NCBI GenBank assembly: GCA_964549935.1
Contig: CAZJVT010000003.1
Span: 159,501-223,500, forward strand
Reading direction: 5' to 3'
DNA from: an uncultured Candidatus Saccharibacteria bacterium
GTDB lineage: Bacteria; Patescibacteriota; Minisyncoccia; UBA6257; 1-14-0-10-44-23
Length of the DNA: 64,000 bases
Shown: positions 1,344 to 47,860 of the stretch, piece by piece
Layout: each line of letters opens with the position of its first letter
Position numbering within the stretch: the first letter of the stretch is position 1
Made by a program: the position numbers and the translations under genes
The notes under the pieces: generated by a model
The model's database searches: none
Told to the model about the DNA's origin: nothing
What the model saw: only the letters and a program-made list of their open reading frames with translations

Positions 1344-2033
1344 ATGACCGAAATCGTGGTGACCGGCTACTTCGCGTACCAGGGCGACCCGCCGAAGGAG
1401 GTCGTGCTCGGAAATATCGCGTCGACGCTCGAGCTGCCGAAGTCCGGCCTCACGCTTTACTACGGCTACCAGTCGACTCTCGCGGCGATGTCCCGGGTGC
1501 GCCAGGCCGCCGAAGCGCAGAAGATGTCGGTCTGCACGGTCTCGGTGACCCTCGAGGTGCCGGAGAACGTCTATGCCCAGCGCATCTACCTCAAGCCCCG
1601 GACGGTCGAGACCAATCACGCCGGAGTGAAGAAGAAGGTGAAGGTGCCGGGCCTGGACCAGATCCAGATGGTCTTCATGGACCGCATCGGCAAGGAAGGC
1701 GTGGACGTCCTCAGCGAGCAGGCGCGGAAGATCCTCGCGCGCAGGGACATCCCCTACGAAGAGGGCTTTGCCTATTCGGGGCGCTTCATGACGGCCCATC
1801 CGTGGTTCCTGGACCAGCTGGTGAAGTCGCCTTACCTGAAGTCGGCGGAAGGCATCTTCTACTGGTCGGTCGAAGACCGGAAGCCGGTGCAGCCGGTGCA
1901 GCTGGTCACCCTGTTCTCGGATGCCTCGGTGACGAAGGTCGACACCCGCGGCGTCCGGACCGTCATCCGCTTTCCCAAGCAGATCCTCTCGAAGTCCGAC
2001 AAGGGCTGGAAGGATCCTCAGGTCTTCGGCTGA
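1344..2033 (+). CDS. Hypothetical protein (229 aa)
   Basis: ORF track. Diverse amino-acid composition, GC3-rich codons. Followed by a stem-loop terminator at 2060-2095. Confidence 0.7.
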   Translation: MTEIVVTGYFAYQGDPPKEVVLGNIASTLELPKSGLTLYYGYQSTLAAMSRVRQAAEAQKMSVCTVSVTLEVPENVYAQRIYLKPRTVETNHAGVKKKVKVPGLDQIQMVFMDRIGKEGVDVLSEQARKILARRDIPYEEGFAYSGRFMTAHPWFLDQLVKSPYLKSAEGIFYWSVEDRKPVQPVQLVTLFSDASVTKVDTRGVRTVIRFPKQILSKSDKGWKDPQVFG

Positions 2034-2059
2034 CGACCCTTACCTAGATCGGGACGATG

Positions 2060-2095
2060 AACGGCGGCACCTGACGGGCCGCCGTTTTCGTTTGC
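2060..2095 (+). terminator. Rho-independent terminator: stem AACGGCGGC / GCCGCCGTT, then T-rich TTCGTTTG
   Basis: Inverted repeat read directly, 27 nt after stop of 1344..2033. Confidence 0.5.
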
Positions 2096-2214
2096 GTCCA
2101 CGGCTTCATGGAGAGCCCCGGGCAAGGCAAATAGGAAAGGAAAGACTGCTCCTTCTTCTTCGCGCTTTCTGATTAATCGTGTACGCTTATGGGTAAGCGG
2201 AGGGAAGGAACAGG

Positions 2215-2847
2215 ATGTCCACAGCGTTCGCCAGGGTCGTTTCCCTGGATGGCAAAGCCATCCCTTCCCCGTCGGCCCCGGGCCATGACGCCAATCAGCG
2301 CTCCAATATCCCGACCCCCCGTCCTCTCACCGGCCTTTGGAGCCGACCGAGCTTCCGTGCCGCCGGCGCCCGCATGATGAACCGCCTCATAGAGCTCAAG
2401 CTGCTTTCCGAGGCAGGCATGCGCGTCCTTTCGGGCATCCTCGACGAGCAGCCTGGACCGGTTTGTCTCGAGGCACTCGACCCGACCCTCTATTTCTCGA
2501 CCGTCGGGGCAGAGGATGCGGCGATCGAGATCCAGGAATGGGTCGGTCGCCTGATCGACGACAGCCGGACCGGTATCCAGGGGGCGCCGGAGGCCGAAGC
2601 CCATGTCTGGGCGGTGCGCCTGGGGCTTCTCCCGGCGGAAACCGGTCATCCGGAGATCGTCGAGGAGCCCGGCCAGACCATGGATCTGGCCCCCGGCACG
2701 ATCGGGCTTTCAGAGATCGACGCCGACGAGATCGCCCAGGAGATCATGCGCGGGGAGCCGCCGTCGGGCGGCACCCCTTCCCCGCTCCCGTCGTCGCTGG
2801 TTCGCCCCGGTATCCCGGACGCCAAGGTTTCCGAGGTGCCGTTCTAG
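2215..2847 (+). CDS. Hypothetical protein (210 aa), Pro/Gly-rich C-terminus
   Basis: ORF track. Competing minus ORF 2173..2649 is Arg-rich junk. Confidence 0.5.
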   Translation: MSTAFARVVSLDGKAIPSPSAPGHDANQRSNIPTPRPLTGLWSRPSFRAAGARMMNRLIELKLLSEAGMRVLSGILDEQPGPVCLEALDPTLYFSTVGAEDAAIEIQEWVGRLIDDSRTGIQGAPEAEAHVWAVRLGLLPAETGHPEIVEEPGQTMDLAPGTIGLSEIDADEIAQEIMRGEPPSGGTPSPLPSSLVRPGIPDAKVSEVPF

Positions 2848-2849
2848 GT

Positions 2850-3368
2850 CTAGCCGACCAATTTCGATTTCTCAGCTCGCGCCTTTCTTCTACGTTCGGC
2901 CTTCTCCTTGACCAGCTCCGCGACAATGTCGGAAGCATCCTTGCGCGAAGCCTGGTTCAGGAAGTGAAGCCCGGCTCGGATGATCTCGCTGTCGTCGACA
3001 TTGGTGCCGATCGTACTCATGAAGTCGACACGCAGACGGTGAATCAGCTGATCGTCACCGACGGTGATGACATAGGTGTTCCGCTTGACCTGGTTCTCTT
3101 CTTCCTTCTGCTGACGCCGCGAAAGAGGACGCTGCTCGACGGCGACAGAAGGCATGACTGGAGCGCTAGGCGGTGGCGGAGCGACGGGAGGCACCAGTGC
3201 GATAGGCGGAGCGGCGGCGGGTGCTAGAGGCGGCGTAGCAGGGCTCGGCTGAGCCTCAGGTGCGGGATCCACCTTTCCCGTCTTCGCGAATTGCTCGATT
3301 TCCTCAGGGCTCACTTTCTGCTTTATGAATGAGCGCGCCGCCGGTGGCATTGAACTTACATTGGTCAT
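2850..3368 (-). CDS. Putative partition centromere-binding protein (ParG/ParB-like partner of ParA). Has a Pro/Ala-rich linker and basic Lys/Arg C-terminus.
   Basis: Immediately downstream of parA with a 2-nt gap. Size and charge pattern are typical of small type Ib partition adaptors. No motif-level proof. Confidence 0.5.
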   Translation of the reverse strand: MTNVSSMPPAARSFIKQKVSPEEIEQFAKTGKVDPAPEAQPSPATPPLAPAAAPPIALVPPVAPPPPSAPVMPSVAVEQRPLSRRQQKEEENQVKRNTYVITVGDDQLIHRLRVDFMSTIGTNVDDSEIIRAGLHFLNQASRKDASDIVAELVKEKAERRRKARAEKSKLVG

Positions 3369-3370
3369 CT

Positions 3371-4051
3371 TTATGCGGCCTTCTGCGTAAGAGGCACTCC
3401 GAGTATCTCCAGTATCTCGTCGGCAACGTCTCTGAACTGCCTGCAGGAAATCGTTCTGCTGCGCGAGTGGATCGCCTCGCCATATCCCTGGATTTGTCGA
3501 AGCACCTGCGCCTGCGAGATCTTCGTTCGAAGCATCTCGATCTCCATGACATTCACGATCTCGAGCGCTTGGGCCATGATCGTGGTCCGCGGCTGATACT
3601 CATTGAGCACAGCTCTCACCTCGACATGGGTGTTGCGATATCTGGCGGCTTCGATCATCTCCTTCATGACCTTGGTCGCGTCCAGGTCGACCCATGCTGG
3701 TTTGATCGGTACGAGTACGAAGTCGGCGGCCATTACAGCAGCCCTCGATTGGGGCGCCTCACGATCAGGTGGACAATCGACGACCACGAAGTCGTTCCGC
3801 CTTGCCTCATCCTGGATTCCGCGCCCGATTGTCTCGCCCATGGCGTAGAGGCTGGAGACCCTCACGGCTAACGGCTTGCCGTCGGGGGCATTCCCTAGCC
3901 AGAACATGGCGGATTGCTGCTTGTCGGCATCGATTAGGGTGACCTCGTATCCCCTTTGCGCAAGCTCGGCCGCCAGGTTCACCGAGACCGTTGTCTTCCC
4001 GCAGCCGCCCTTCTGGTTCGCCACGGCAATGATCTTCTGCTGCATGGCCAT
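3371..4051 (-). CDS. parA: ParA/Soj-family partition ATPase (small type Ib ParA)
   Basis: Deviant Walker A KGGCGKTT near N-terminus (MAMQQKIIAVANQKGGCGKTTVSVNLA). Start ATG verified at 4049-4051. Confidence 0.9.
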   Translation of the reverse strand: MAMQQKIIAVANQKGGCGKTTVSVNLAAELAQRGYEVTLIDADKQQSAMFWLGNAPDGKPLAVRVSSLYAMGETIGRGIQDEARRNDFVVVDCPPDREAPQSRAAVMAADFVLVPIKPAWVDLDATKVMKEMIEAARYRNTHVEVRAVLNEYQPRTTIMAQALEIVNVMEIEMLRTKISQAQVLRQIQGYGEAIHSRSRTISCRQFRDVADEILEILGVPLTQKAA

Positions 4052-4057
4052 CCTCGC

Positions 4058-4425
4058 TATGGCGCGCCATCTCGCATGGCACGCCTCATTTCACGCTCTG
4101 TTCGCCCCCCGAACCGCGCCATCCAGTATTCCTTGCCATCAGGGATGGCGCGCCGGCCGAGGCGGCATGCCATCGAGCGAGGCGTGCCACGATATCGGGC
4201 GTGTCGCCTCGGATGTCCTGGCTGCCCATATGTCATGCCGCCCAGGATGGCGCGCCCCAGATCACTACAAGACATACCGGGTGGCTATCCATATCTTGTG
4301 GATAAGGCTCGTAACTATCGCCATATACTCGTGATTCGGCGAGGTGACAAGCACCATCCCAGGAGGCGCGACGCAATTCGGATTTCGCCAGACGGGATGG
4401 CGCGCCATACAAAATGGCGCGTGAC
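4058..4425. repeat. Array of ATGGCGCGCC(AT) palindromic repeats, candidate partition centromere and/or iterons. Copies at 4058-4070, 4144-4154, 4245-4256, 4394-4410 and 4411-4425, plus degenerate copies.
   Basis: Repeats read directly in the intergenic region upstream of parA. Confidence 0.55.
4285..4306. promoter_or_regulatory. DnaA-box-like pair in inverted orientation: TGTGGATAA (rc TTATCCACA) at 4297-4305, and CTATCCATA at 4285-4293
   Basis: Exact 9/9 match to DnaA box consensus on the minus strand, sitting in the repeat region. Confidence 0.35.
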
Positions 4426-4484
4426 TTCTCAACGGTTGGTACTATCGCGTCGGCACCTTATGATGCGTGAAAGGAGCCGAGCCG

Positions 4485-5654
4485 ATGAACCTCAGAGAAG
4501 TGCTGACCCCCGCCGCCCTGGCGCCGTTGTTCGCTGCCTACGACGACAAGAACGACGGCTACGAGAACTATCGGAAGCAGGTGAAGGGGATCGTCTGGCC
4601 GGCTGTGCAGAGGCATCTCGAAGGGCTACGAGCAGCAGGGAAGCTGGCGCCGATCCCGAACTCGAAGGGACGCAGCTCCAACTTCATGGACGCATGGAAC
4701 GCCATGGTGACGGGGGAGGGGCGGCGGTACAGCGAGCCCCAGTACATGTGGCATGCCATCCTCCAAACGGTCAGCCACGGCCTGGTCTTCGATGCCCTGG
4801 ACGCCATCCGCGAGTCCGCCAAGCTGATGGGGTCCAGAACCGAAGCTGAAAAGATCGCTTGCGAACGTCTCATCGCCGCGATCGAGAAGGGTGACGCGCC
4901 GAAGTACATGAGCGGCGAACACGAATGCACCGTTACCGGAGATCGCCTCTCGCTCGTCATCAAGGATTGGCGGCCATCATTTAGCCATTACCGGGACGGC
5001 AAGCTCGTGCCCATCGAGGAAGTGCCCGAGCCCCGCATCGTCGAGCTCGAGGTCGAGCTGAAGAGCGGCAACCTGCTCATCGCCGACTGGTTCCGCATCG
5101 ACGCCTTTACCAACGCGGTGAAGCTCGAGAAGGAGAGAAGCATCAACTCGGTGCAGGGCTGCCAGGAGTTCACCGAGCGCAGCCTGGCCGAGCATGGCTT
5201 CGTCACCGTCTTCGTCGGCAATTCGAGTCCTCGCATCATCAGCAAGAACGATGCGCTGGTGCTCGGCTACTATGATGAGGACGGCGACGAGGATTTGGCC
5301 GGAAAGGAACTAGGCTCGGTCTGCACGGACCTGTGGTGGGCGACGATCATCGAGCGCGAGCACCTGGTCTCGATCGTTGCGCGGACGCACGGCGAAGAAG
5401 AGGCCGAGCGCCTGGTGGCGGCCTATCTCGTGGAGCATGCGCATGTCGTCAACGAGGTGAAGGTCTCACCCGGCAAGCACATGCTCTACTTTGCCGGCGA
5501 CCCAGAGATCATCGAGGAGAGGTTCGCCGCGAAGGACTTCCCGATGGGCCCGATCGAGCCGTATTTCGTGCTGTCGAACAGGAAGCTGGATCTCGTGGCA
5601 AAGGCACGGCATGTCCAGCCCGAACCGGATAAGCCGGCGAGTCTCGCGCTCTAG
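4485..5654 (+). CDS. Hypothetical protein (about 389 aa) downstream of the repeat array; candidate replication or plasmid-maintenance protein (speculative)
   Basis: ORF track frame 4467..5654. SD AAGGAG at 4471-4476 favours ATG 4485 (MNLREVL). Confidence 0.65.
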   Translation: MNLREVLTPAALAPLFAAYDDKNDGYENYRKQVKGIVWPAVQRHLEGLRAAGKLAPIPNSKGRSSNFMDAWNAMVTGEGRRYSEPQYMWHAILQTVSHGLVFDALDAIRESAKLMGSRTEAEKIACERLIAAIEKGDAPKYMSGEHECTVTGDRLSLVIKDWRPSFSHYRDGKLVPIEEVPEPRIVELEVELKSGNLLIADWFRIDAFTNAVKLEKERSINSVQGCQEFTERSLAEHGFVTVFVGNSSPRIISKNDALVLGYYDEDGDEDLAGKELGSVCTDLWWATIIEREHLVSIVARTHGEEEAERLVAAYLVEHAHVVNEVKVSPGKHMLYFAGDPEIIEERFAAKDFPMGPIEPYFVLSNRKLDLVAKARHVQPEPDKPASLAL

Positions 5655-6991
5655 TCGGTCGGCGTCTTGGGTCTTGCCGCAAGGACGGCCGCGATGTGCT
5701 TGTTCACCTGATCCATATTCGCGATCTCCGCGGATAGATCGATCCAGGCACGAAGCTCCTCGGTGCGAGCGGGCGATTTGGGGATCTTTGGTCGAGGGGG
5801 CCTTGCGCGTTCCTCGGCCGCCTCGTCGAGCTCCATGACGAGGAGTTCCCTTTCATCCTCTTCCGCGCCTTCTTTTTTCTGAACGGGGCGCTGCCGGCCG
5901 TCGGGATCGTCGATCACCTCGATCGCCGTGGCGTCGATCACGTCGTCCTGGTCGATCGGCTTCTGGCTTTCCTGGGCCGGCAGGGACCTCTTCGGATCCC
6001 AGTCGTCGTGGTCGTCCCGCGGCGCCTTGGGCGCGACGAAGGCCCGCCGGACCTCGATGTCTTCCTTCAGGCTGGCGAAGTCGATGCCGGCGTAGGCTTT
6101 CCATGTCCGGCGCCCGCTGATCTCCTCGAGGATCCCGAGCGCCACGAGCTCTTCAAGCATCATGTTCGCGGCACGGACGGTGCAGCCGAAGCGACGTGCA
6201 ACCCCCGCAGGCGTGAGGATGGGCGACGCGGCGGCCTGGTCGATCAGGAGAGGGAGTCGGGAATTCGACCGTCGTTCGCCGGCGCGCCCGTGCCAGGCTT
6301 TCCAGGACAGGGTCAGGGTCCGGAGAAGGCCCAGAAGCTCGACCGCGTCCGCTTCGAGAGCTTCGAGGAAGGCGGCGAGGAACAGGTCCGGCCTTTCCGA
6401 GCCGGTTCGGTGGACCTGGTCCGCGACCAGGAGGATGGGGGAGGGGACCAGGCCGTGCATCGCCAGGCTGGCCGGCAGGCGCTCATGGGCGAGGCCGGCC
6501 GTCATGAGGTTGGACCGGCCTTCATAGAGCTGGGCCGCGACCGCGAAGAGAGCAGGGCCCTTGCCCGCTGGCTGAAGGGGGAACGAGCCCATCAGAGGGG
6601 GTTTTTCATCCGTCTCGGGTGGAGTCTTCGGCCAAGGCGAGGCGGAGAGGGCGAGCAGCCGCCGAGCCCTGCCGATGGCCCGGCGCTCGGCTCCTTTGTC
6701 GGCCATGGCCGGGAGCTGGAGGAGGGCCAGGTGACCCGCGATCCGGGCCTCGTCGACCAGGATCCCGTCGATTTTCGACAGTCGGACAGCCGCATGCAGG
6801 GCTGACCGGCAGGCGAAGGCATCCGAAAGGGGGTGGTTGCGAAGGCTGGTGGAAAGCTCCGCGATCGCCCTGACGCAGGTCTCCAGGCCGCGCAGGACCC
6901 TGTCGGTTCGGACCGACGGGGACGAGAACCTGTGAGGAGGGCCCGCCGGTGCCGGCTCTTGTGCCGGAATCCGCGAAAGAAGGGAAGTCAT
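5651..6991 (-). CDS. Hypothetical protein with winged-HTH-like segment (LEELVALGILEEISGRRTWKAY)
   Basis: ORF track. Start ATG at 6991 directly abuts the palindrome TAGTATACTA. Confidence 0.65.
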   Translation of the reverse strand: MTSLLSRIPAQEPAPAGPPHRFSSPSVRTDRVLRGLETCVRAIAELSTSLRNHPLSDAFACRSALHAAVRLSKIDGILVDEARIAGHLALLQLPAMADKGAERRAIGRARRLLALSASPWPKTPPETDEKPPLMGSFPLQPAGKGPALFAVAAQLYEGRSNLMTAGLAHERLPASLAMHGLVPSPILLVADQVHRTGSERPDLFLAAFLEALEADAVELLGLLRTLTLSWKAWHGRAGERRSNSRLPLLIDQAAASPILTPAGVARRFGCTVRAANMMLEELVALGILEEISGRRTWKAYAGIDFASLKEDIEVRRAFVAPKAPRDDHDDWDPKRSLPAQESQKPIDQDDVIDATAIEVIDDPDGRQRPVQKKEGAEEDERELLVMELDEAAEERARPPRPKIPKSPARTEELRAWIDLSAEIANMDQVNKHIAAVLAARPKTPTD

Positions 6992-8212: not shown

Positions 8213-8494
8213 TTGCCGCTCTTCATGTGCAGGGTCTGCTTCTGCGTCGAGAACACCGCGGTCTCCGGATACAGCGCCCAGATGCGCCGGGCGATCGCCG
8301 TCGGTGAAGAGCTGAAACCACTCTGCTCCGAGCATTTCCTCGGTGCCTGGCATGGGCGCTTCGAGAAGCGATTGGCCGTTGGTCATCTCGAAGGAATTGA
8401 CGGTTTTCTCTACACGCCAGATGAGGCCGCCGGATCGATGGCAACTCAGGGGCCATTCACCAGCATTACGTTGCCGACATCGACCAGCAGATGA
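8213..8494 (+). CDS. Possible small Cys-containing protein (93 aa); weak
   Basis: ORF track. GC3 bias good in first half only. Confidence 0.25.
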   Translation: MPLFMCRVCFCVENTAVSGYSAQMRRAIAVGEELKPLCSEHFLGAWHGRFEKRLAVGHLEGIDGFLYTPDEAAGSMATQGPFTSITLPTSTSR

Positions 8495-9609
8495 GCGAAC
8501 CCGAGAATCCTGGGGGCGGTCGTCAACAGGGCGGCGCGATCGCGAAGCCCACAGGCTCGGCCGAGATGGTGCCCTACAATGTCGAGCGCCTCAGCAAGCG
8601 TGCCGGCGAGCTGGTCGGGAAGTCGCTCTCGGAATCCACCAAGTCCACCTACGGACGCGCGATCAGGGCCTTCAACGACTGGTGCCTGGAGCGCGGCGCA
8701 TCGAGCCTGCCGGCGACCGACATTACCGTCGCCGAGTTCGTCACCGAAGCGCATGACCGGAAGATCGCGGTCAGCACTCTCTACGTGACCCTGGCCGCCA
8801 TCCGGGCCCGGCACCTGGCGCATGGCCATCCATCGCCGGCCGACGGCGAGCTCATCCGGCGCGTGATGGGCGGCGCCGCGCGCGAGGATGCCGAGTACCG
8901 TGTCGACAGGAAGAAGAAGCCGCTTACCTCACAGGGTCCACTGGTCGAGGTCCTGGAAGCGATCATCGCCGGCATCGATGAGACCCGCGGCTTGCTCCAG
9001 GAGATGAAGGAGGCCGGCGTCCCGACTCGAGGGGCTAGAGCATTCGTCATCGACAAGCGAAAGCTCGAGGCACGGCTTCTTGCCGCGCTGCGCGACAAGG
9101 CTCTCCTCCTGATCGGCTTCGCCGGAGCGCTCCGCCGTTCCGAGCTCGCTGCTATCCGGATCGGTCATGTTCGAAAGGCGGAGAGAGGCATCCTTCTTAC
9201 GGTGCCGCGTTCGAAGACCGACCAGGAAGGCAAGGGACGCACGATCGCCATTCCCTTCGGCAAACGGTTCTGCCCTGTCGCGGCCTATGACGAATGGGTT
9301 GTAGCAGCCGGCCTTCACAACGGTCCGGCTTTCGTGCGGATCTACAAGGATGGCAGGATCGGCATGGAGGCGATCGCCGGCGCGACGGTGGCGGAGATCG
9401 TGAAGATGCGAGCGAAGGCAGCGGGGCTTGATCCCAAGAAATTCTCTGGCCACAGCATGCGCTCCGGTTTCCTTACCAGCGCGGGAAAGAAGGGTGCGAA
9501 CCTCTGGAAGATGATGGACCAGGCTGGCCAGAAGTCGGTGAACACGACCCGCGGCTACGTGCGCGACGAAGAGCTGTTCGAGGACAATGCCGGCGAGGAC
9601 CTCCTGTGA
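8491..9609 (+). CDS. Tyrosine site-specific recombinase / integrase; start could also be ATG 8566 (MVPYNVERL)
   Basis: C-terminal catalytic signature HSMRSGF ... KSVNTTRGYVR (R-H-R-Y). Confidence 0.85.
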   Translation: MSEPENPGGGRQQGGAIAKPTGSAEMVPYNVERLSKRAGELVGKSLSESTKSTYGRAIRAFNDWCLERGASSLPATDITVAEFVTEAHDRKIAVSTLYVTLAAIRARHLAHGHPSPADGELIRRVMGGAAREDAEYRVDRKKKPLTSQGPLVEVLEAIIAGIDETRGLLQEMKEAGVPTRGARAFVIDKRKLEARLLAALRDKALLLIGFAGALRRSELAAIRIGHVRKAERGILLTVPRSKTDQEGKGRTIAIPFGKRFCPVAAYDEWVVAAGLHNGPAFVRIYKDGRIGMEAIAGATVAEIVKMRAKAAGLDPKKFSGHSMRSGFLTSAGKKGANLWKMMDQAGQKSVNTTRGYVRDEELFEDNAGEDLL

Positions 9610-10340
9610 TCGGTCTTCTCGCTGGATTGATCGTCGCCTGGGCTTCGGCTGCGTCGGCCGACGTGCGCTACATGCCGCCTGAGCCGCGACGTGTCGGCAT
9701 CATCGAGATCTTCGGCTCGATCGAGCCGGCTGACGGCGATCGCTTCGCCGATGTCCTCGAGCTCGCCAAGACGTCGGCGAAATCTTTCTACGTCGACGGC
9801 GTGCCGCTCATCATGGTGTCCCTGAATAGCGCTGGCGGCGATGTTGCGACAGCGATGAAGATCGGACGCCTGGTCCGTGCTTCGTTCGCCAATACGAGCG
9901 TCATGACAGGCGGCAGATGCGCTTCCGCCTGCGTCTTCATTCTTGCATCGGGAGCCTTCCGCGTGGTTTCCGCGGACGGACGCGTCGGGCTCCATCGCCC
10001 TGTCTTCGCCGGTCCGGAATTCGGGAAGCTGCCGCCGGCACAAGCCCGGGATCGCTACAATCGCATGCTTCGCGAGATCCGCTCGTTTCTCGCTGGCATG
10101 GGTGCGCCGGACCAGCTCTATCTGGCGATGACGCGGGTGCCGTCGCAAGAGATCCGATGGCTGACGCGGAGGGAGGTCGCCGAGTTCGATCTGGACGGTG
10201 AGGACCCTGCGATCGCCGAATGGATCAGGGCCGCTCAGCGCAACGAGATGGGCGAGGAAATGCAGCGCAAGTTCGACGAGCACAGCCGATGCCTGCAGGA
10301 GGGCCGGGCAGAGCAGCAGTGCAGCAGGCTGCTGGACTGA
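9606..10340 (+). CDS. Secreted ClpP-fold (S14/S49-like) serine-peptidase-like protein with signal peptide
   Basis: Signal peptide MIGLLAGLIVAWASAASA. SAGGDVATAMKIGRLV and GRCASACVFILASGA resemble the ClpP SPGGSV and ASMG motifs. GTGA overlap with recombinase stop. Confidence 0.6.
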   Translation: MIGLLAGLIVAWASAASADVRYMPPEPRRVGIIEIFGSIEPADGDRFADVLELAKTSAKSFYVDGVPLIMVSLNSAGGDVATAMKIGRLVRASFANTSVMTGGRCASACVFILASGAFRVVSADGRVGLHRPVFAGPEFGKLPPAQARDRYNRMLREIRSFLAGMGAPDQLYLAMTRVPSQEIRWLTRREVAEFDLDGEDPAIAEWIRAAQRNEMGEEMQRKFDEHSRCLQEGRAEQQCSRLLD

Positions 10341-10681: not shown

Positions 10682-10718
10682 TGTGGATAACTTCTAGTCG
10701 ACCGCTACATCTTGTAGC
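10682..10718. promoter_or_regulatory. DnaA box TGTGGATAA (10682-10690) plus palindrome GCTACA-TCT-TGTAGC (10704-10718), upstream of 10757 gene
   Basis: Read directly. Confidence 0.3.
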
Positions 10719-10756
10719 GTTTAAGCTCCCTGCCAGGCAACCACAGGGAGTGCGCC

Positions 10757-11617
10757 ATGACTGCCGTCCGTGTCGCCCAGACCGTCGAAAACCCGTCCCA
10801 TTTCCCCGACCCCACCCGCCAGGCGGTCCCGCTCCTCGATTCCCTGACCGTCGACCACGGCCCGGCGCGCCTCATCACGGAGTTCTTCGCCAGGGCCGAG
10901 GGCCTCATGCGCTCGCACGGCATCCACCTCTGGTTCTCGAACGACTTCCGCGTCCTCGAGCAGATCAACGCCGTGAACGTCGGCAGCTGGTACCGGCTGT
11001 GGCCGGCCTTCACGGCGGAGGGCGGCGCCGGCGCCGACAATGCCTACTTCTTCTTCGGCACCCTCGACGGCCAGGTCGTGGCGACGCAGGTCGGCCGCGT
11101 CTACCGGATGCCCGAGGGGCTGACCGAAAGCTGCAGGTCGCTCCGCTTCATGTATAGCGACCCCGCGACCATGGCGACGCCGGAGGATCGATGCGAGCTC
11201 CTCGGCGAGGCGGCCCTTCATGGAGAGGAGATCCGCGGGACCGTCGTGCAGAGCGGCGGCACCTGGTTCCATACCGAGCACGCCCGCGGCCGCGGCTTCG
11301 CACATGTCTTTCCCAGGCTGTCGCGGGCCTTCGCGCTTGCCCGCTGGGGAACGGACTGGACCGTATCGACCGTCCGCCAGAGCCTGGCCGACATCGGCGT
11401 CGGCAACGCCTATGGCTACAAGAAGCTCTATCCGGAGCTGATCTGGAAGGCGCCGGCCTCGCGCGCCGGCTACACCAAGGACGATCCCCTCAACCTGGTG
11501 AGCCTGGCGCGCGCCGAGACGATCGCGGATCTCGAGGCGGCGGTGGAGTCCCAGCGGTTCGCGGGGTTCGGACCCCGGCGTCCGGACGCTACGCCGCGAA
11601 TGCGGGCGGCGGAGTGA
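10757..11617 (+). CDS. Hypothetical protein (286 aa)
   Basis: ORF track; protein-like composition. Confidence 0.55.
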   Translation: MTAVRVAQTVENPSHFPDPTRQAVPLLDSLTVDHGPARLITEFFARAEGLMRSHGIHLWFSNDFRVLEQINAVNVGSWYRLWPAFTAEGGAGADNAYFFFGTLDGQVVATQVGRVYRMPEGLTESCRSLRFMYSDPATMATPEDRCELLGEAALHGEEIRGTVVQSGGTWFHTEHARGRGFAHVFPRLSRAFALARWGTDWTVSTVRQSLADIGVGNAYGYKKLYPELIWKAPASRAGYTKDDPLNLVSLARAETIADLEAAVESQRFAGFGPRRPDATPRMRAAE

Positions 11618-17643: not shown

Positions 17644-18945
17644 CTAAACCGGCGCCCGGTTGAAGCCCGGGTAGACGAACGCGCCGCGGATCCGCTCGCA
17701 ATCCTGTTCGGACATCCCCTCGGCCCTGGCGAGCTGGTACCACTCGGATGCCACGAGCCGCTGCATCTCGTCGACGATGCGCTCGGCCTCCGCAGGCTCG
17801 AGCGTGAAGCGCCGGCACTGGCTCACCAGGTTCGTCGCATTCGCGATGCGGCCGAGATCGCCGATCTCCATGGCGAGATCGCGCCGGTCGAGCGAGACCG
17901 GCATCGAGGGCGTCAGGTCGTAGGCAGGCGAAATCTGCCACGTCCCGTCCCAGGCGATCACGGCATGGTTGCGCGGATGATCGTCGATGTTGGAGATGAG
18001 CGCATTGAAGCACATCCGTCGGAACAGCTCCTTCGCGTCGGCCGCGGACGTGGCCGAGATGCGGCGGAGCTCCTCGGCCAGAAGCACGTATGACCAGAGA
18101 TGCCGGTCCAGGGGGCCTTCATCGGCCCTGAGCAGGGTGAAGGCGCTCACCATGCGCGCACGGCGCCAGCCTTCGCCCTCGCGCTGGCGATCGAACCGCT
18201 TCACCAGCAGGGCATCGCGGCCGCCGACGTCGACGATGCGGCTGTCGGCGACCGTGATGCCGGCCAGCCGCGCGAGAGCGAGCATCGTCCTTTCCGCGCG
18301 GGCATTGTTGAAGCGATCGTCCGGTCGGTTGAACTTGGCGATCCAGAGCGCTCCATCGTCTTCCACGACTGCCTTCGGCCTGGCACCGCCCATCGAGGTG
18401 CCCAGCAGCAGGAGATCGCCGATCTGCGGCGCGGCGTCGGCCGATGACGCAGGAATGTCCTCGTCGGCGACGACCGCATCGGCTGCGGCCTGCAGCGCTG
18501 CGAGGTCGATCGTCCGGTTGAAGCGGGTCCGCGGAGCAGGAGGCTCGACGTTCCGTCCGAAGCCGAGGGCGCCGGCACGATCGTCGGGCGATTGCAGGAG
18601 ATAGTCGAGCTCGGAGGGCTGGGCGATCCCGGAATGCTTCTCGATCACCCGTCGGCCCCAGTAGTCGGGGCTCGCGTCCCGGATCGCGCCGAACACGCCC
18701 TTGAGCCTGACCGTATCGTAAGCCGTCGCCGCGAGCTTCAGCTCGACGGGATCGAGTTCGACGGCGTCCGGGCGCGCCAGATAGCTCCGTCCGTACACGA
18801 ACCGTCCGCGCGGGATGCCGAGCCCGTCGACCTCGAGGCGGTAGCGAGCGGCCGTTACGCTCGAGGTGGCGCCGGGGAGCGTGATGTAGACGAAGCACTC
18901 GTCGGCGGCGCGGCCAGCTCTGGAGGCCCCGGTCCTAGAAGTCAT
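17644..18945 (-). CDS. hipA: HipA-family Ser/Thr kinase toxin
   Basis: GGARPK P-loop-like motif and catalytic IDDHPRNHA motif. Confidence 0.85.
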   Translation of the reverse strand: MTSRTGASRAGRAADECFVYITLPGATSSVTAARYRLEVDGLGIPRGRFVYGRSYLARPDAVELDPVELKLAATAYDTVRLKGVFGAIRDASPDYWGRRVIEKHSGIAQPSELDYLLQSPDDRAGALGFGRNVEPPAPRTRFNRTIDLAALQAAADAVVADEDIPASSADAAPQIGDLLLLGTSMGGARPKAVVEDDGALWIAKFNRPDDRFNNARAERTMLALARLAGITVADSRIVDVGGRDALLVKRFDRQREGEGWRRARMVSAFTLLRADEGPLDRHLWSYVLLAEELRRISATSAADAKELFRRMCFNALISNIDDHPRNHAVIAWDGTWQISPAYDLTPSMPVSLDRRDLAMEIGDLGRIANATNLVSQCRRFTLEPAEAERIVDEMQRLVASEWYQLARAEGMSEQDCERIRGAFVYPGFNRAPV

Positions 18946-19508: not shown

Positions 19509-20945
19509 TCACGACGGGAGCCGCCAGCCGCCGGGCTTGTCCTCGAAGCCGAGCACGTCGACCTCGATGCCGAAGCCGAAGGCGTCGTTGAGCAGCTCCA
19601 CCTGGCGTCCGATCGCCGACATGACCCTCAAGGCGACGGGGCCGTATTTCGGCTTGGCGCTTCGCACCTTCTCGGCGACGCCGAGGATCATGGCCGCCGC
19701 CACCCGGAGCCGGCCGAGGATGACGGAGGGGCGGATCCCCATCCGGTTTGCGGCGCGCTCGATCGCCTGCATGTCCAGGTCCTCGAAGCCCTGGTCGTCC
19801 TGGCCCTCCTCGGCGCCGAAGGTGAGCGCCATGCGCTGGCGGTACTGCGGGTAGAGCGCGATCGAAAGCACGTCGTAGAGCGGCGCCAGTCCGGCACGGA
19901 ACGCCCGCCCGTGCAGGAGCGCGTAGTTCTTGGCGTGCGCATCGGCATTGGCGACGAGGAAGTTGAAGATCATCGCGTCCAGCAGGTTGATGCGGAAGAG
20001 CGCGAAGGCGTCGACCTTCTCGAGGGCGAGGAGGTCATCGGCCCGCGGTCCGCCGCGATGGGTGTACTTGCGATCGGACGTGAAGCCGAGCGCCTGGCAG
20101 AAATCCTCCTGGTGGACGCGCCTGACGATGCAGGGACCGGAGATGCCGGCCGCGGCGGGCATGATCGCCCCACGGGGGGATCGTGCAGGCAGGAGACCTT
20201 CGATCTCGCGATCGTATCGAGGCACGACGAGGACCTCGCGGCCCGGCGCGAGCTCGACGATCCGCGGCTCGACGGCATCGAGGCCCATCGCCCGGGCGAG
20301 GTCCAGGCAGAAGGATTCGTTCGCGACCATGCCGGCGAAGGCGGGATCGGGAAGCTTGGCGATATGCGTCGAGGGCGCGCCGCCGCGGGCGCGATGGAAG
20401 CGGCCGTCGGCATCCATGACCACGGCGGCCTTGCCCTGGACGCCCGCGAGCGAGAACTCCTGCCCCTCGCCGGCGGCTCTCGTCCGGTCGATGCCTTTCT
20501 CCATCTGGTCGAGGAGATCGGCGGGGTCGAGGACGTCGTAGTCTTGAGGGAATTCGCCCGGCGTCTTCGCCGGATGCTCTCCGGCGGGCACGATCGAGAC
20601 GGCTCCCGGGCAGTCGCGGCCGACATGCTCGAGGATGCCCATGAGGTCGCGCTCGTCGAGTCCGAGCTGGAGCGCCAGGACCGACAGCCGCTTTCCTTCG
20701 GGCAGGAGGTTCTCGAAGAAGGGGAGGACGTCGCGCGGCCCGTAGACGCGGTTCTGCACCGGCAGCGAGATCGAGAGCGCGGCGCGCGGATAGCTGCCTA
20801 CATAGGCCGGGTCGTAGGCGAAGGTGGTCTCGAGGCCGGTATGCACGAGCCGGCCGGCGACGCCGGTCTGCCCGTCGAGGAAGACGTCGAGGGCGAGCTT
20901 CCGGTCGGACGAGGCTATGGCCTTGCCGGGCAGGCCGCCGGTCAT
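19509..20945 (-). CDS. hipA: HipA-family kinase toxin, second copy (478 aa)
   Basis: FSLAGVQGKA and LVANADAHAKNYAL motifs. Confidence 0.85.
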   Translation of the reverse strand: MTGGLPGKAIASSDRKLALDVFLDGQTGVAGRLVHTGLETTFAYDPAYVGSYPRAALSISLPVQNRVYGPRDVLPFFENLLPEGKRLSVLALQLGLDERDLMGILEHVGRDCPGAVSIVPAGEHPAKTPGEFPQDYDVLDPADLLDQMEKGIDRTRAAGEGQEFSLAGVQGKAAVVMDADGRFHRARGGAPSTHIAKLPDPAFAGMVANESFCLDLARAMGLDAVEPRIVELAPGREVLVVPRYDREIEGLLPARSPRGAIMPAAAGISGPCIVRRVHQEDFCQALGFTSDRKYTHRGGPRADDLLALEKVDAFALFRINLLDAMIFNFLVANADAHAKNYALLHGRAFRAGLAPLYDVLSIALYPQYRQRMALTFGAEEGQDDQGFEDLDMQAIERAANRMGIRPSVILGRLRVAAAMILGVAEKVRSAKPKYGPVALRVMSAIGRQVELLNDAFGFGIEVDVLGFEDKPGGWRLPS

Positions 20946-22046: not shown

Positions 22047-22730
22047 GTGACCGTCCTGGCGCGGCCCGATTTCAGGATCCTGCCGAACGGATACCTGCGC
22101 GACCTCGTCGCGCGACACCGCCGGGAACGCGCCGGCTACGTGGCCGTCGATCTCTACGAGGTCGTCTATGACGTGCCGGTTCTAGGATGGGCGGCGACTC
22201 GCGATGCGGCGCTCCTGGCCGCGCTCGAGCTCCGGCCCGATCGCCGCAATGTCGGTGTCTTCGCCTGCCGGCCCGAGCTCAAGGCGCAGATAGAGGCCGC
22301 GGGCTATGACTTCCAGACGACGAGCATCATGGCGCAGATCGCCGACGGCATCGCCTACGACGTTTCGGAGCTTTACCCGCCGCATGCCGCGCTCGAGTGG
22401 GCGGGCGACGTGGCGTCGTCGAACCGGCGCCTCGAAACGGGCGAAACGGACTGGCCAGCCATGCGGGACCTGCTTGTCCGCATGGGGCTCGCGCACCTCA
22501 GGGGCAGCATGATGGTCGACCTTGCGGAAAGCGGAATGATCGGGTGGACGGAAGAGGCGCCACTTCGGGGGATGGGCATTGCCAGCGCAGGCGGCCTGGC
22601 CCCCTTGTCCTCGCTACTCTTGCAGGCCGAGCGCGAGACGGCAGCAAACCTGAACGCATGGGAAATCGAGACGCAGGTCGGCAATTTTCTCGATGGTCGG
22701 GCCGAGAGCGCCTGGCTCAGGCGCGCCTGA
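22047..22730 (+). CDS. Hypothetical protein (227 aa), divergent from umuD and sharing the LexA-box intergenic region
   Basis: ORF track (GTG start). Confidence 0.5.
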   Translation: MTVLARPDFRILPNGYLRDLVARHRRERAGYVAVDLYEVVYDVPVLGWAATRDAALLAALELRPDRRNVGVFACRPELKAQIEAAGYDFQTTSIMAQIADGIAYDVSELYPPHAALEWAGDVASSNRRLETGETDWPAMRDLLVRMGLAHLRGSMMVDLAESGMIGWTEEAPLRGMGIASAGGLAPLSSLLLQAERETAANLNAWEIETQVGNFLDGRAESAWLRRA

Positions 22731-22817: not shown

Positions 22818-22855
22818 CCCATATGGCGCGCCATATGTCGCGACGCGCCATATGG
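22818..22855. repeat. Compound palindrome CCATATGGCGCGCCATATG-TCGCGA-CGCGCCATATGG (three CATATG half-sites). It contains the same ATGGCGCGCCAT core as the parA-proximal repeats.
   Basis: Read directly, between convergent genes. Confidence 0.5.
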
Positions 22856-22858: not shown

Positions 22859-23371
22859 TCAGGCCATCGCCATTTCCTGCCGGGACCGCGGCGGAGGCGC
22901 CAGGTCGCCGAGACGATCCCGGGCATCGCGCATGAGTTCCGGCCTGACCTCGTCGAGATAGGCCATCATGTCGGCCGGGGATACCCAGCATTCGTGCCAT
23001 CGGCCCGGCGTGCCGGCGCAGATGTGCCAGCGTCCGGCATCGCCGCCGCTTCCGTCGGTGACGGCCTTGAACAGGGTCTTGAGGCAGTCCTCGTCGATCT
23101 GGAAGGCTTCGAAGCCGGTCGGTCCGCCGATGATGCGGAGGATCTCGTAGTCGCGGCAGCCGGCGATGGCGGGCTCCACTCGGATCTTGAGTTCGCGCTC
23201 GAAGCTGTCGATCACCGTCTTTCGGGAATCGCGGTAGGTCCAGTGGGACGCAATTGGCCGCTCGAGCCGCTCGAGCGCCGCCTCGGCGGCGAGGCGGCTG
23301 TCGTAGCGCGCCCGCTCCTCCGGGCTCATCGCGGCTATGCGATCGGCGAGCAACTTGGCGAAGTCGACCAT
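22859..23371 (-). CDS. Hypothetical protein (170 aa; start MVDFAKLL)
   Basis: Inner start of ORF 22859..23557 verified at rc 23369-23371. The upstream part of the ORF is low-complexity. Confidence 0.5.
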   Translation of the reverse strand: MVDFAKLLADRIAAMSPEERARYDSRLAAEAALERLERPIASHWTYRDSRKTVIDSFERELKIRVEPAIAGCRDYEILRIIGGPTGFEAFQIDEDCLKTLFKAVTDGSGGDAGRWHICAGTPGRWHECWVSPADMMAYLDEVRPELMRDARDRLGDLAPPPRSRQEMAMA

Positions 23372-23444
23372 CTGACACTCCGACTGAGAATGGCCATCGG
23401 ATGATACAGTGCCGAAGCGATAATACAAAGCCCGACGGGTCCTT

Positions 23445-24203
23445 GTGCCGGGCCATCGAGGCGCCATGAAGCCCCGGGACACCCCGAGTGCGGACGAGAC
23501 GATGGCGGTCCTCCTCTTTCTCCATGAAAGAGGTGGTTCGGTCGCGGAGAAGGGCATGCCTCGTCGCCTGTCCAGGATAGCGTTCGCCCTGTCCTATGGA
23601 GACCTGGTGCAATACCGGGGAGGCAATAGCTTCCGGCTCACGAAGAAGGGAGCCGAGGCTGCCGCCAGGGGCTCTCTCGAACCGGTGCCGGCCGAGCGGC
23701 CGAGGCGCCGTGGCAGGCCGCCGGGCGGCGGCAAGCCCAGGTCCGGCGACGCGGACTGGATGAAGCCGCAATCCAGCCGGTCGACCACCGACGTCGATCG
23801 CGTGGTGGGAAGCAATATCCGCGAGCTTCGTTCGGCTCGGGGCATGTCGCAGACGAGCCTCGGCGAGCTCCTTCACGGGATCACCTTCCAGCAGATCCAG
23901 AAATACGAACGGGGCGACAACCGCATCTCGGCGACGAGGCTATGGCAGCTCGCGAAGGTCTTCGGCATCGACGTCGAGATGCTCTTCGCAGGTCTGGAGC
24001 CCGGCGAGACGGCAATAGACGAGGAGATGCTGACGATCATGGAGAACGCCGAGACGAAAGAGCTCGCGACGAACTTCCATAGGCTGGACCCGATGACGAG
24101 GGGATGCATCCGGAACCTCGTTCGGGAGCTTGGACCTCCTGAAAGGAAAACGAGACGGGCCAGGCGCGGCCGCAGGAGGGCGGATCTGGCGCTGCAGGAC
24201 TAG
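23445..24203 (+). CDS. XRE-family HTH transcriptional regulator (HTH in C-terminal half)
   Basis: VGSNIRELRSARGMSQTSLGELLHGITFQQIQKYERGDNRISATRLWQLAKVFGIDVEMLF. Confidence 0.75.
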   Translation: MPGHRGAMKPRDTPSADETMAVLLFLHERGGSVAEKGMPRRLSRIAFALSYGDLVQYRGGNSFRLTKKGAEAAARGSLEPVPAERPRRRGRPPGGGKPRSGDADWMKPQSSRSTTDVDRVVGSNIRELRSARGMSQTSLGELLHGITFQQIQKYERGDNRISATRLWQLAKVFGIDVEMLFAGLEPGETAIDEEMLTIMENAETKELATNFHRLDPMTRGCIRNLVRELGPPERKTRRARRGRRRADLALQD

Positions 24204-27433: not shown

Positions 27434-28068
27434 GGGTCCGTCATTTCTTCCTTGCCGTCGGCGGGCTCGCTGCCATGACCGGTGTCGCGGTGGCCCAGGC
27501 CCCATCGATCCCGATGGCATCGCCACAGGCCGTGACCTCGTTGCCCCAGTCCGGGCCGCAGCCCGGGCCGCTCTCCCTGACGGTGCCGGCGAGCTCTCCG
27601 GGCTCCCTCAACCCCCTGCAGCCTCGTCCCACTCCGCAGGCCATGACGGCCGCGCCGGCCGCGGGCGCCCAGCCCCCGGCAATCGGTGGCCAGGCGCCGC
27701 CTTTCGGACAGACGCTGCCTGCGCCGCCGGCGCTCAACACGCCGGCCCAGGAGGTGAGCTCGAGCGACCTGTCGACGGTCACGATCACCGCGATCATGGA
27801 CGGCGCGGCGGTCCTACGCACCGCCAACAACTCCTACCAGGTCGCGGACAAGGGCATGCTCAGCCACAACGGGCGGCTTTACGGCGTTCGCGTGAAGGAC
27901 GGCGTGGTCACCCTGTTCGACCGCAACCAGCGGCCGGTCTTCGAGGCGACGGTCGGTTCCGGCGTATCGCCCGAACAGCGGTTCTCGTGGACGCGTGCCC
28001 AGTCGTCGTCGGGCAGCGCAACCGGAGCCCCGCCGGCCCCCGCGCCGGCCCCGCTCAAGACGCCCTGA
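27430..28068 (+). CDS. Secreted pilus-assembly accessory protein (Pro/Ala-rich; pilotin or PilP-like?)
   Basis: Signal peptide MRVRHFFLAVGGLAAMTGVAVAQA; ATGA overlap with secretin stop. Confidence 0.6.
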   Translation: MRVRHFFLAVGGLAAMTGVAVAQAPSIPMASPQAVTSLPQSGPQPGPLSLTVPASSPGSLNPLQPRPTPQAMTAAPAAGAQPPAIGGQAPPFGQTLPAPPALNTPAQEVSSSDLSTVTITAIMDGAAVLRTANNSYQVADKGMLSHNGRLYGVRVKDGVVTLFDRNQRPVFEATVGSGVSPEQRFSWTRAQSSSGSATGAPPAPAPAPLKTP

Positions 28069-28070
28069 CC

Positions 28071-42127: not shown

Positions 42128-42134
42128 GCGCCCC

Positions 42135-45062: not shown

Positions 45063-45160
45063 CAGACCCTCCGGGGAGCGTCACGCCCCTATTCCGGGAT
45101 CGCGAACGCATGGTATCATAATGTGACTTCAAGATTATAGCGGACTGCGGAGAAAGCACG

Positions 45161-47578: not shown

Positions 47579-47665
47579 TCGTTGACGCGGCTCGCCGGCA
47601 GGGATTTCATCTTCCTCCCTAAGTAGCAGAGGGCCGACGACGGCCCCAACCGGGAGGACGGAACC

Positions 47666-47860
47666 ATGGCGGCCAAGAAGACGACGGGCGGCAACAGGAA
47701 GACCCTGACGTCGAAGAACGATGTCGAGAAGAAGCCCATCGATACGGGTGGAAGTCCGAAGAAAGGGCGCCAGGTCGTGAAGACCAAGCCGAAGGCCGGG
47801 AGGAAGCCGATCGACGAACGGCCCAGGATGCCGCCCGGCAAGACGCTCCTGAAGGGCTAG
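47666..47860 (+). CDS. Small Lys-rich basic protein (64 aa), possible nucleic-acid-binding
   Basis: SD GGGAGG 8 nt before ATG. Confidence 0.45.
   Translation: MAAKKTTGGNRKTLTSKNDVEKKPIDTGGSPKKGRQVVKTKPKAGRKPIDERPRMPPGKTLLKG

What the first reader, a model, noticed from the sequence alone, without database searches (positions are those of the whole stretch)
4052..5654. Centromere/iteron-like ATGGCGCGCCAT array with inverted DnaA boxes next to parA: candidate replication/partition control region
Five or more copies of a GC-rich 12-bp palindrome core, plus an AT-richer stretch carrying TGTGGATAA (a perfect DnaA box) and a second DnaA-like box in inverted orientation, lie between parA and the 389-aa hypothetical gene 4485-5654.

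This layout (Rep gene, iterons, DnaA boxes, parAB) is typical of iteron plasmids. If that holds, the hypothetical protein is a candidate novel initiator. A second perfect DnaA box sits at 10682-10690.
Basis: partly seen in the sequence, partly recalled or inferred. Interest (0 to 1): 0.55.

Follow-up and report, generated by a model that had tools for sequence, protein, structure and literature searches.

The report
Plasmid partition centromere, not an origin
The GC-rich repeat cluster is most likely the centromere and operator of an ordinary small ParA-type DNA partition module on a conjugative element. Nothing supports a replication origin here or an initiator role for the neighbouring 389-aa gene.

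Summary
The repeat array is real. ATGGCGCG occurs 8 times in 4059-4421, against 0.08 expected. Two copies are perfect ATGGCGCGCCAT palindromes and two match 10 of 12 bases.

The array lies upstream of a two-gene operon. This encodes a small Walker-type ParA (3371-4045, -) and a translationally coupled 172-aa protein (2850-3368, -) with a probable ribbon-helix-helix (RHH) C-terminal domain.

The decisive evidence is a syntenic relative, L036. Both flanking genes are conserved at about 75% nucleotide identity, including the 389-aa gene (72% amino-acid identity). The 1.59-kb segment parA + adaptor + array (window 2846-4435) is replaced there by an unrelated par cassette with its own, different hexamer array. 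So the repeats travel with the par genes, not with the 389-aa gene.

The 389-aa protein folds confidently but matches no solved structure, only uncharacterised phage proteins. Seven other homologues sit in contexts without parA.

The perfect DnaA box at 4297-4305 is real. Two perfect boxes in the window exceed chance. The "second inverted box" has two mismatches, which is chance level.

Verdict: a new member of the type Ib partition systems. The origin and initiator reading is unsupported.

The parts
2850..3368 (-). 172-aa centromere-binding adaptor candidate ('ParB/ParG-like'). It has an N-terminal tail, a Pro/Ala-rich linker of about 55 aa and a C-terminal domain with an RHH-like pattern (RNTYVITVG...G-TNVDD-SEIIRAGL).
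   Evidence: Its ATG lies 2 nt after the parA stop. Its only relatives are P0021, P0022 and P0023, each directly downstream of a related small ParA where the context is visible. A profile of the C-domain hits only three ParD RHH antitoxins in the PDB, weakly (E 0.4-1). There is no Pfam or NCBIfam hit. The single-sequence AF2 model is poor.
3371..4045 (-). parA: a 224-aa Walker-type partition ATPase with deviant Walker A (KGGCGKTT) and no N-terminal HTH extension.
   Evidence: Pfam AAA_31, CbiA and MipZ. NCBIfam NF041546 'ParA family partition ATPase', E 1.8e-47, 161.6 bits (cut-off 180), protein residues 5-196 on profile positions 1-188 of 203. It is at most 37% identical to any PLSDB plasmid ParA.
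4059..4421 (.). Repeat array, the proposed centromere and operator. The four GGCGCGCC cores sit in ATGGCGCGCC sites at 4059-4070 (A, perfect 12-mer), 4145-4156 (B), 4247-4258 (C) and 4397-4408 (D, perfect 12-mer). Half-sites lie at 4076, 4115, 4166 and 4414. Most cores are preceded by GCCAT-like plus N5.
   Evidence: Site A lies 14 nt upstream of the parA ATG and abuts the GAGGA SD. A relative (L043) has the analogous palindrome GTTATAAC abutting the SD of its parA.
2846..4435 (.). The exchangeable par cassette (adaptor + parA + array), delimited by loss of homology to L036.
   Evidence: blastn of L036 against the window finds homology only at window 1548-2845 and 4436-5596. The 1590 bp between them correspond to 1591 unrelated bp in L036.
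4260..4350 (.). AT-richer core of the intergenic region (45-47% GC). It carries the perfect DnaA-box sequence at 4297-4305 (- strand, TTATCCACA).
   Evidence: Its function was not established. It lies inside the swapped cassette.
4436..4464 (+). Sigma-70-like promoter TTGGTA-17-TATGAT for the 389-aa gene. It lies 14 bp downstream of the last repeat.
   Evidence: The -10 hexamer and the downstream leader are conserved in L036, and homology starts exactly at the -35 hexamer.
4485..5654 (+). 389-aa protein of unknown function, a neighbour and not part of the par module. It belongs to a rare family with conserved motifs GNLLIADWFRI, VGNTSP and CTDLWW.
   Evidence: 16 family members. AF2 pLDDT 88.8. 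No PDB fold match. Three uncharacterised phage proteins in BFVD match at E 1e-11 to 1e-13. PHROG 33592, unknown function.
22820..22855 (.). Distant site with the same motif: the perfect 18-bp palindrome CATATGGCGCGCCATATG followed by CGCGCCATATGG. It lies between convergent ORFs.
   Evidence: This is the third perfect 12-mer in the window (expected 0.01 per shuffle). Binding by the adaptor is inferred only.

Best explanation
Window 2846-4435 is a self-contained type Ib-like partition module of a conjugative element.

Proposed mechanism:
- The 172-aa adaptor dimerises through a C-terminal, probably ribbon-helix-helix, domain.
- It binds the ATGGCGCG half-sites and ATGGCGCGCCAT palindromes spread over about 360 bp upstream of parA, forming the partition complex.
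- Its flexible N-terminal tail then stimulates the small Walker ATPase ParA on the nucleoid to segregate copies of the element.
- Site A abuts the parA ribosome-binding site, and site D lies just upstream of the divergent promoter. The same binding therefore probably autoregulates parA-adaptor expression and may also affect the 389-aa gene.

Shown here: the anatomy, the statistics, the ParA identity, and the co-inheritance of array and par genes as one swapped cassette.

Inferred: the adaptor's fold, that the adaptor is the binder, autoregulation and the stabilisation function.
For: 1. The array is highly non-random and confined to the parA upstream region.
2. ParA is a small partition ATPase without an HTH extension.
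3. The adaptor gene is translationally coupled to parA. It belongs to a small family always found just downstream of a co-varying small ParA: L042 has ParA 50% and adaptor 37% identity; L043 has ParA 35% and adaptor 36% identity.
4. In L043 the parA upstream region again carries a repeated palindrome (GTTATAAC, 3 copies) with one copy abutting the SD, as site A does here.
5. In the syntenic relative L036 both flanks are conserved. ParA (29% identity), the adaptor (no similarity) and the array (about 35 phased TA[CT]CG[GCA] hexamers) are all replaced together.
6. The only PDB sequence hits of the adaptor C-domain profile are RHH ParD antitoxins, aligned on the SE(I/V)IRAGL helix.
7. This layout matches the published definition of type Ib systems: the centromere is upstream of the operon, and a small RHH centromere-binding protein with a flexible N-terminal tail represses transcription (PMC3074162; PMC9499535).
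Against: - The RHH fold is not demonstrated. The Pfam and NCBIfam searches found no hit, the PDB hits have E about 0.5, and the single-sequence AF2 model is low-confidence and all-helical.
- Characterised type Ib centromeres are contiguous short repeats. pCXC100 has 9-nt repeats. pSM19035 has 7-bp repeats and needs at least 4 contiguous copies for full ParA-ATPase activation. Here the sites are discrete palindromes and half-sites 17-150 bp apart.
- No binding or stability data exist.
- It is unknown whether the element is a plasmid or an integrated element.
- The perfect DnaA box inside the array is unexplained.
Confidence: 0.75

Rival explanations
1. One reading: the intergenic region is an iteron-type vegetative origin. 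The ATGGCGCGCCAT repeats are iterons for the 389-aa protein acting as a novel Rep, and DnaA boxes plus an AT-rich stretch serve for unwinding.
For: There is one perfect DnaA box in an AT-richer 90-bp stretch. Two perfect boxes in 64 kb exceed chance. No recognisable Rep gene was found elsewhere in the roughly 82 kb examined, so the origin is unlocated.
Against: - The 389-aa protein has no Rep or winged-helix signature and no PDB fold match. Its only structural relatives are uncharacterised phage proteins.
- Seven other family members lie in contexts without parA or repeats.
- The 72%-identical orthologue in L036 faces a completely different array.
- The repeats are in both orientations, irregularly spaced and not tandem.
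- The second 'box' is chance level.
- There is no GC-skew inflection at this position.
Confidence: 0.05
2. The repeats are purely transcriptional operators. The adaptor, or another repressor encoded within the cassette, binds them to control the divergent parA and 389-aa promoters. The true centromere lies elsewhere, for example at the 22820-22855 palindrome.
For: The sites are discrete palindromes positioned at the parA SD (site A) and next to the divergent -35 hexamer (site D), like classical operators. A further perfect palindrome lies 18.5 kb away.
Against: In type Ib systems operator and centromere functions normally coincide in the same upstream repeats (PMC3074162; PMC9499535). At least ten half-sites over 360 bp is more than operator control needs. 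L036 has a dense array over the same interval.
Confidence: 0.13
3. The CGCGCCAT-N5-ATGGCGCG units are REP-like extragenic hairpin repeats of the host genome, with no link to partition.
For: The unit can form an 8-bp stem with a 5-nt loop. A metagenomic contig (L050) carries the same hairpin as a 34-bp tandem repeat upstream of polA. The 22820 site lies between convergent genes.
Against: There are only two loci in about 82 kb examined. Most units have degenerate left arms. The array lies in a divergent promoter region and is swapped with the par genes in L036.
Confidence: 0.03

Closest known systems
TP228 ParF-ParG-parH and pCXC100 ParA-ParB-parS (type Ib partition systems with RHH centromere-binding proteins)
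   Same: Both have a small Walker ParA without an HTH, followed by a small adaptor with a flexible N-terminal tail and a C-terminal dimeric DNA-binding domain. The repeat-containing centromere lies upstream of the operon and doubles as operator (PMC3074162). The adaptors of this class are too divergent for sequence recognition, as is the case here.
   Different: There is no detectable sequence similarity of the adaptor to any characterised centromere-binding protein. The adaptor is longer, at 172 aa, with a Pro/Ala linker of about 55 aa. The sites are GC-rich 12-bp palindromes and 8-bp half-sites dispersed over 360 bp, not contiguous 4-9-bp repeats.
pSM19035 delta-omega with dispersed parS sites
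   Same: An RHH ParB binds direct or inverted short repeats that overlap several promoters at different places on the replicon, so it is both centromere protein and global regulator (PMC9499535). The extra site at 22820-22855 here would fit such a role.
   Different: The omega sites are arrays of 7-10 contiguous heptads at promoters. The distant site here is a single palindrome plus a half-site between convergent genes. There is no sequence relationship.
Iteron plasmid origins (own knowledge: RK2 oriV, pSC101, P1 oriR, F oriS)
   Same: Repeated sites and a DnaA box lie in an intergenic region next to par genes.
   Different: There is no Rep gene. The repeats are not tandem, phased or uniformly oriented. 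There is a single credible DnaA box and only a modest AT-rich stretch. The repeats co-vary with the par genes, not with the neighbouring gene.

Membership tests
Type Ib ParA partition system | Small Walker-type ParA lacking the N-terminal HTH domain of type Ia | tested here: met
   224 aa. NF041546 ParA_partition covers residues 5-196 on profile positions 1-188 of 203, at 161.6 bits (below the equivalog cut-off of 180). Pfam AAA_31, CbiA and MipZ.
Type Ib ParA partition system | Small centromere-binding protein gene immediately downstream of parA in the same operon | tested here: met
   The 172-aa ORF starts 2 nt after the parA stop. Homologues P0021 and P0022 lie in the same position behind related ParAs.
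Type Ib ParA partition system | [quoted passage not shown] | tested here: inconclusive
   The sequence pattern is beta (RNTYVITVG), helix, G-x-x, SEIIRAGL helix. The only PDB profile hits are three ParD RHH antitoxins at E 0.4-1. There is no Pfam hit. AF2 without an alignment gave pLDDT 57.
Type Ib ParA partition system | Repeat-containing centromere located upstream of the operon and overlapping its promoter or operator | tested here: met
   8 perfect half-sites lie in 4059-4421, upstream of parA, with site A abutting the SD. The array co-varies with the par genes in L036. Protein binding itself is not testable here.
Type Ib ParA partition system | Confers segregational stability and partition incompatibility | not testable with these tools
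   This needs plasmid-stability assays.
Iteron-type plasmid origin (oriV) | Adjacent gene encodes a Rep initiator (winged-helix Rep family) | tested here: not met
   The 389-aa protein has no Pfam, NCBIfam or PDB match to Rep proteins. Its fold matches only uncharacterised phage proteins. The 446-aa neighbour has only a weak C-terminal HTH match to the RHE_PE00001 family.
Iteron-type plasmid origin (oriV) | Tandem, same-orientation, helically phased 17-22-bp iterons | tested here: not met
   Start-to-start spacings of the units are 69, 34, 68, 150 and 17 bp (one search gives the first four; the 17-bp step is between the last two starts, 4384 and 4401, re-registered by eye). Half-sites lie on both strands. 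TRF finds only a 2.2-copy 17-bp row at 4047-4085.
Iteron-type plasmid origin (oriV) | Cluster of DnaA boxes next to an AT-rich unwinding element | tested here: inconclusive
   One perfect box lies at 4297-4305. The neighbouring 'box' has 2 mismatches, a class at chance frequency. About 90 bp are at 45-47% GC.
Iteron-type plasmid origin (oriV) | Repeats conserved together with the initiator gene in relatives | tested here: not met
   In L036 the 389-aa orthologue is 72% identical, but the array is replaced by unrelated hexamers together with parA and the adaptor.

The most novel reading that the evidence does not exclude
The 172-aa protein founds a very rare family of centromere-binding adaptors; only 3 relatives were found among 1.8 billion representative proteins. 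It would recognise dispersed GC-rich 12-bp palindromes rather than contiguous short repeats. It would also occupy at least one distant site (22820-22855), acting like omega or KorB as both centromere protein and element-wide regulator. The par module would be a replaceable cassette exchanged at fixed breakpoints between related conjugative elements, perhaps to escape partition incompatibility.
Probability: 0.25. Interest if true: 0.4.

Novelty: new member of a known kind. Interest (0 to 1): 0.25.

Why it matters
The finding adds a divergent and rare adaptor-plus-centromere pair to the type Ib partition systems. It also gives a clean natural example of whole par-cassette replacement between related elements. 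This is useful for annotation and for plasmid-incompatibility thinking, but it does not change the picture of how partition works. It also removes a tempting but unsupported annotation of the 389-aa gene as a replication initiator. That protein remains a confidently folded family of unknown function, shared with phages.

Tried and rejected
- megablast of 2800-5700 against PLSDB found no match.
- ParA-based locus search in GTDB genomes found only distant ParAs, 34% identity or less, so it gave no organism and no comparative upstream regions.
- The four Logan contigs carrying the locus are 100% identical to the window, so they give no comparative signal. The '101-aa' adaptor call in L002 is only a different start-codon choice.
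- Adaptor searches gave the following. The word-index search found only itself. The exhaustive HMMER search found 2 relatives. The profile search found one more. PLSDB tblastn found nothing.
- A motif scan (ATGGCGCGCCAT-N5-ATGGCRCG) found 11 hits in metagenome contigs and none in viral contigs. None had par or 389-aa homologues. L050 is an unrelated tandem hairpin repeat upstream of polA.
- Walking about 8.6 kb left and about 9 kb right of the window found no extra motif sites, DnaA boxes or Rep gene.
- L036 has a one-mismatch DnaA-like box (TTCTCCACA). I considered it as evidence of a conserved box and rejected it, because its orientation and distance differ and the chance probability is about 0.1 (sequence reading).
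- GC skew shows no informative inflection. There are no Rfam hits.

Full report
**The observation**

The intergenic region 4046-4484 lies between a leftward parA and the rightward 389-aa ORF. The perfect palindrome ATGGCGCGCCAT occurs at 4059-4070 and 4397-4408, and 10-of-12 copies occur at 4145-4156 and 4247-4258.

The better descriptor is the 8-bp half-site ATGGCGCG. Eight of its 19 occurrences in the 64-kb window fall within 4059-4421, where 0.08 are expected (Poisson P about 3e-14). Two variant half-sites lie at 4076 and 4166. The perfect 12-mer occurs three times in the window, against 0.01 per dinucleotide shuffle.

The repeat finder groups the sites into six copies of a 21-nt unit, yGCCAT-N5-ATGGCGCG(CC). 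The spacings are irregular (69, 34, 68, 150 and 17 bp) and the half-sites lie on both strands.

The DnaA-box sequence TGTGGATAA is perfect at 4297-4305 and again at 10682-10690. Two perfect boxes exceed chance: the shuffle mean is 0.043, and 0 of 300 shuffles reached 2. The "second, inverted DnaA-like box" is CTATCCATA, with two mismatches. That class is at chance frequency, 48 observed against 50 expected. The "AT-richer stretch" is about 90 bp at 45-47% GC.

**The genes**

The ORF at 3371-4045 (-) is a 224-aa Walker ATPase. Pfam gives AAA_31, CbiA and MipZ. NCBIfam NF041546 "ParA family partition ATPase" matches at E 1.8e-47 and spans the whole protein with no N-terminal extension. The GAGGA-N5-ATG spacing and independent gene calls favour the start at 4045.

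Two nucleotides after its stop begins a 172-aa ORF (2850-3368, -). It has a short N-terminal segment, a Pro/Ala-rich linker of about 55 aa and a C-terminal domain reading RNTYVITVGDDQLIHRLRVDFMSTIGTNVDDSEIIRAGLHFL. This pattern (strand, helix, G-x-x, SE-IR-AG-L helix) is typical of ribbon-helix-helix proteins, on my reading.

The 172-aa protein has no Pfam or NCBIfam hit. It is nearly an orphan. An exhaustive HMMER search of 1.84 billion representatives found only P0021 (37% identity, full length) and P0022 (36%, C-domain). A profile search added P0023.

A profile of the C-domain hits only three PDB sequences, all ParD antitoxins. These are RHH proteins, and the alignment is on the SE(V/I)IRAGL helix, at E 0.4-1. 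This is consistent with RHH but weak. The single-sequence AlphaFold model was unusable (pLDDT 57).

Where context is visible, the relatives sit directly behind a co-varying small ParA:
- L042 has ParA at 50% identity.
- L043, a phage-like contig with capsid genes, has ParA at 35% identity.

In L043 the parA upstream region carries three copies of the palindrome GTTATAAC, plus one more after the operon. The last copy abuts the Shine-Dalgarno sequence, exactly as site A (4059-4070) abuts GAGGA here.

**The decisive comparison**

The closest homologue of the 389-aa protein is P0002, at 72% identity. It lies on contig L036 in the same gene order: 216-aa gene, small gene (-), parA (-), a 481-bp intergenic region, then the 389-aa-family gene (+).

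blastn shows about 75% nucleotide homology for window 1548-2845 and 4436-5596 only. The 1590 bp between them (window 2846-4435) correspond to 1591 non-homologous bp in L036 (alignments). Within that segment:
- L036 ParA is only 29% identical.
- Its 146-aa adaptor is unrelated in sequence. It has the same build on my reading: an N-terminal tail, a Pro-rich linker and an RHH-like C-terminus.
- The intergenic region carries a wholly different array of about 35 TA[CT]CG[GCA] hexamers, many in 6-bp phase.

Homology resumes exactly at the -35 hexamer of the predicted promoter of the 389-aa gene (TTGGTA-17-TATGAT, 4436-4464).

The repeats are therefore inherited with parA and the adaptor, not with either conserved neighbour. 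The binder must be encoded inside the cassette. Because a type Ib ParA has no specific DNA-binding domain, the adaptor is the obvious candidate. This last step is an inference.

**The 389-aa protein**

- It belongs to a family of 16 proteins with strongly conserved motifs: GNLLIADWFRI, INS..G, VGNTSP and CTDLWW.
- With that alignment AlphaFold gives a confident model (pLDDT 88.8, pTM 0.84) with an N-terminal helical domain and a beta-rich domain.
- Foldseek finds nothing in the PDB at E below 0.2. It finds three uncharacterised phage proteins in BFVD at E 1e-11 to 1e-13.
- PHROGs gives family 33592, of unknown function.
- Other family members lie in contexts without parA or repeat arrays: a 572-kb phage-like contig (P0011), a Leisingera contig beside RNA-ligase and HD/AAA_33 genes (P0016), a Sphingosinicella plasmid region of hypothetical genes (H1), and P0004, P0005, P0006 and P0009.

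Nothing suggests a replication initiator.

**Origin features**

- No tandem iteron array exists here or elsewhere in the window.
- There is no GC-skew inflection at 4 kb.
- No Rep-like protein was found among the ORFs scanned in the window or in about 17 kb of flanks.
- The one perfect DnaA box inside the cassette and the one at 10682 remain unexplained. They may be DnaA-responsive promoter elements or coincidental -35-like TTGTGG sequences.

An origin cannot be formally excluded, but no defining feature of an iteron origin is met.

**Context**

The window and its flanks carry several gene sets that point to a conjugative element:
- secretin, PilB-like ATPase, PilC-like protein and prepilin peptidase genes;
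- a DotM-like gene just beyond the right end;
- a topoisomerase, a RecD2-like helicase, a DNA ligase and RecJ;
- two HipA kinases and a tyrosine recombinase.

On my reading of this gene set, this is a conjugative plasmid or integrative element with an R64-like thin pilus and Dot/Icm-type transfer genes. Such elements commonly carry type I par modules.

**A further site**

The 18-bp perfect palindrome CATATGGCGCGCCATATG, followed by CGCGCCATATGG, lies at 22820-22855 between convergent ORFs. It is far beyond chance and suggests the same binder has a second target, as omega has in pSM19035 (PMC9499535). No further sites occur in about 82 kb examined.

**Comparison with known systems**

The published definition of type Ib has three parts: a small ParA without an HTH; a small, sequence-divergent RHH centromere-binding protein with a flexible N-terminal tail; and a centromere upstream of the operon that also serves as operator (PMC3074162). 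The locus fits on all points that can be tested in silico, except that the RHH fold is only weakly supported.

It differs from TP228, pCXC100 and pSM19035 in three ways:
- the adaptor is longer and has a long linker;
- the motif is GC-rich and palindromic;
- the sites are dispersed rather than contiguous. pSM19035 needs at least 4 contiguous heptads for full ParA-ATPase activation.

**Verdict**

This is a new, divergent member of a known kind of system. The origin and initiator half does not.

Noticed in passing
window 22820-22855: A perfect 18-bp palindrome CATATGGCGCGCCATATG plus the half-site CGCGCCATATGG, the same motif as the par array. It lies between convergent ORFs 22047-22730(+) and 22859-23557(-). 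It could be a second binding site for the adaptor or a hairpin.
   Followed up: partly
window 10682-10690 and 10702-10719: A second perfect DnaA-box sequence lies in the intergenic region upstream of the 286-aa gene (10757-11617). It is followed by the inverted repeat GCTACA-TCT-TGTAGC. Both perfect boxes are preceded by CATAT within 0-2 nt.
   Followed up: partly
window 4485-5654; loci L007, L040, L038: The 389-aa protein belongs to a rare family (16 proteins) that is confidently folded and has no PDB match. It is shared with phages (BFVD hits, PHROG 33592), including a 572-kb phage-like contig. Its neighbours often include RNA-repair or nucleotide-metabolism genes (RNA ligase, HD/AAA_33, Thg1, NAPRTase).
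   Followed up: partly
L036 2474-2908 and 1351-1366: The replacement par cassette in the relative carries about 35 hexamers TA[CT]CG[GCA], many in exact 6-bp phase. A small cluster of the same hexamers also lies just downstream of its adaptor gene.
   Followed up: partly
window 17644-18945 and 19509-20945 (both -): Two HipA-family kinase genes (HipA_C plus Couple_hipA) lie close together, each preceded by a small ORF. These are probably two HipBA-type toxin-antitoxin modules.
   Followed up: no
window 26039-31186, 60814-61944; L058 7533-8768: Secretin, T2SSE ATPase, T2SSF and prepilin peptidase genes, plus a DotM_C-domain gene just right of the window. The gene set looks like an R64-type thin pilus with Dot/Icm-like (MPF-I) conjugation genes.
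   Followed up: no
window 40403-50480: A cluster of DNA-processing genes: a Toprim/topoisomerase-like protein (574 aa), a RecD2-like helicase (975 aa), a WGR-domain ATP-dependent DNA ligase (384 aa) and RecJ (636 aa).
   Followed up: no
window 9606-10340: The 244-aa ORF directly downstream of the tyrosine recombinase (8491-9609) has weak ClpP-like / phage head-maturation-protease matches (E 4e-5 to 4e-6).
   Followed up: no
L050 5916-6030: An unrelated metagenomic contig carries a 34-bp tandem repeat upstream of polA, with the hairpin CGCGCCAT-CAGA-ATGGCG. It was found only because it shares the motif and is probably a REP-like element.
   Followed up: partly
L043 5343-6339: The adaptor's relative P0022 and its ParA lie on a 44.8-kb contig with capsid, cement-protein and lysozyme genes. 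This suggests the ParA/adaptor family also serves phage-plasmids.
   Followed up: partly
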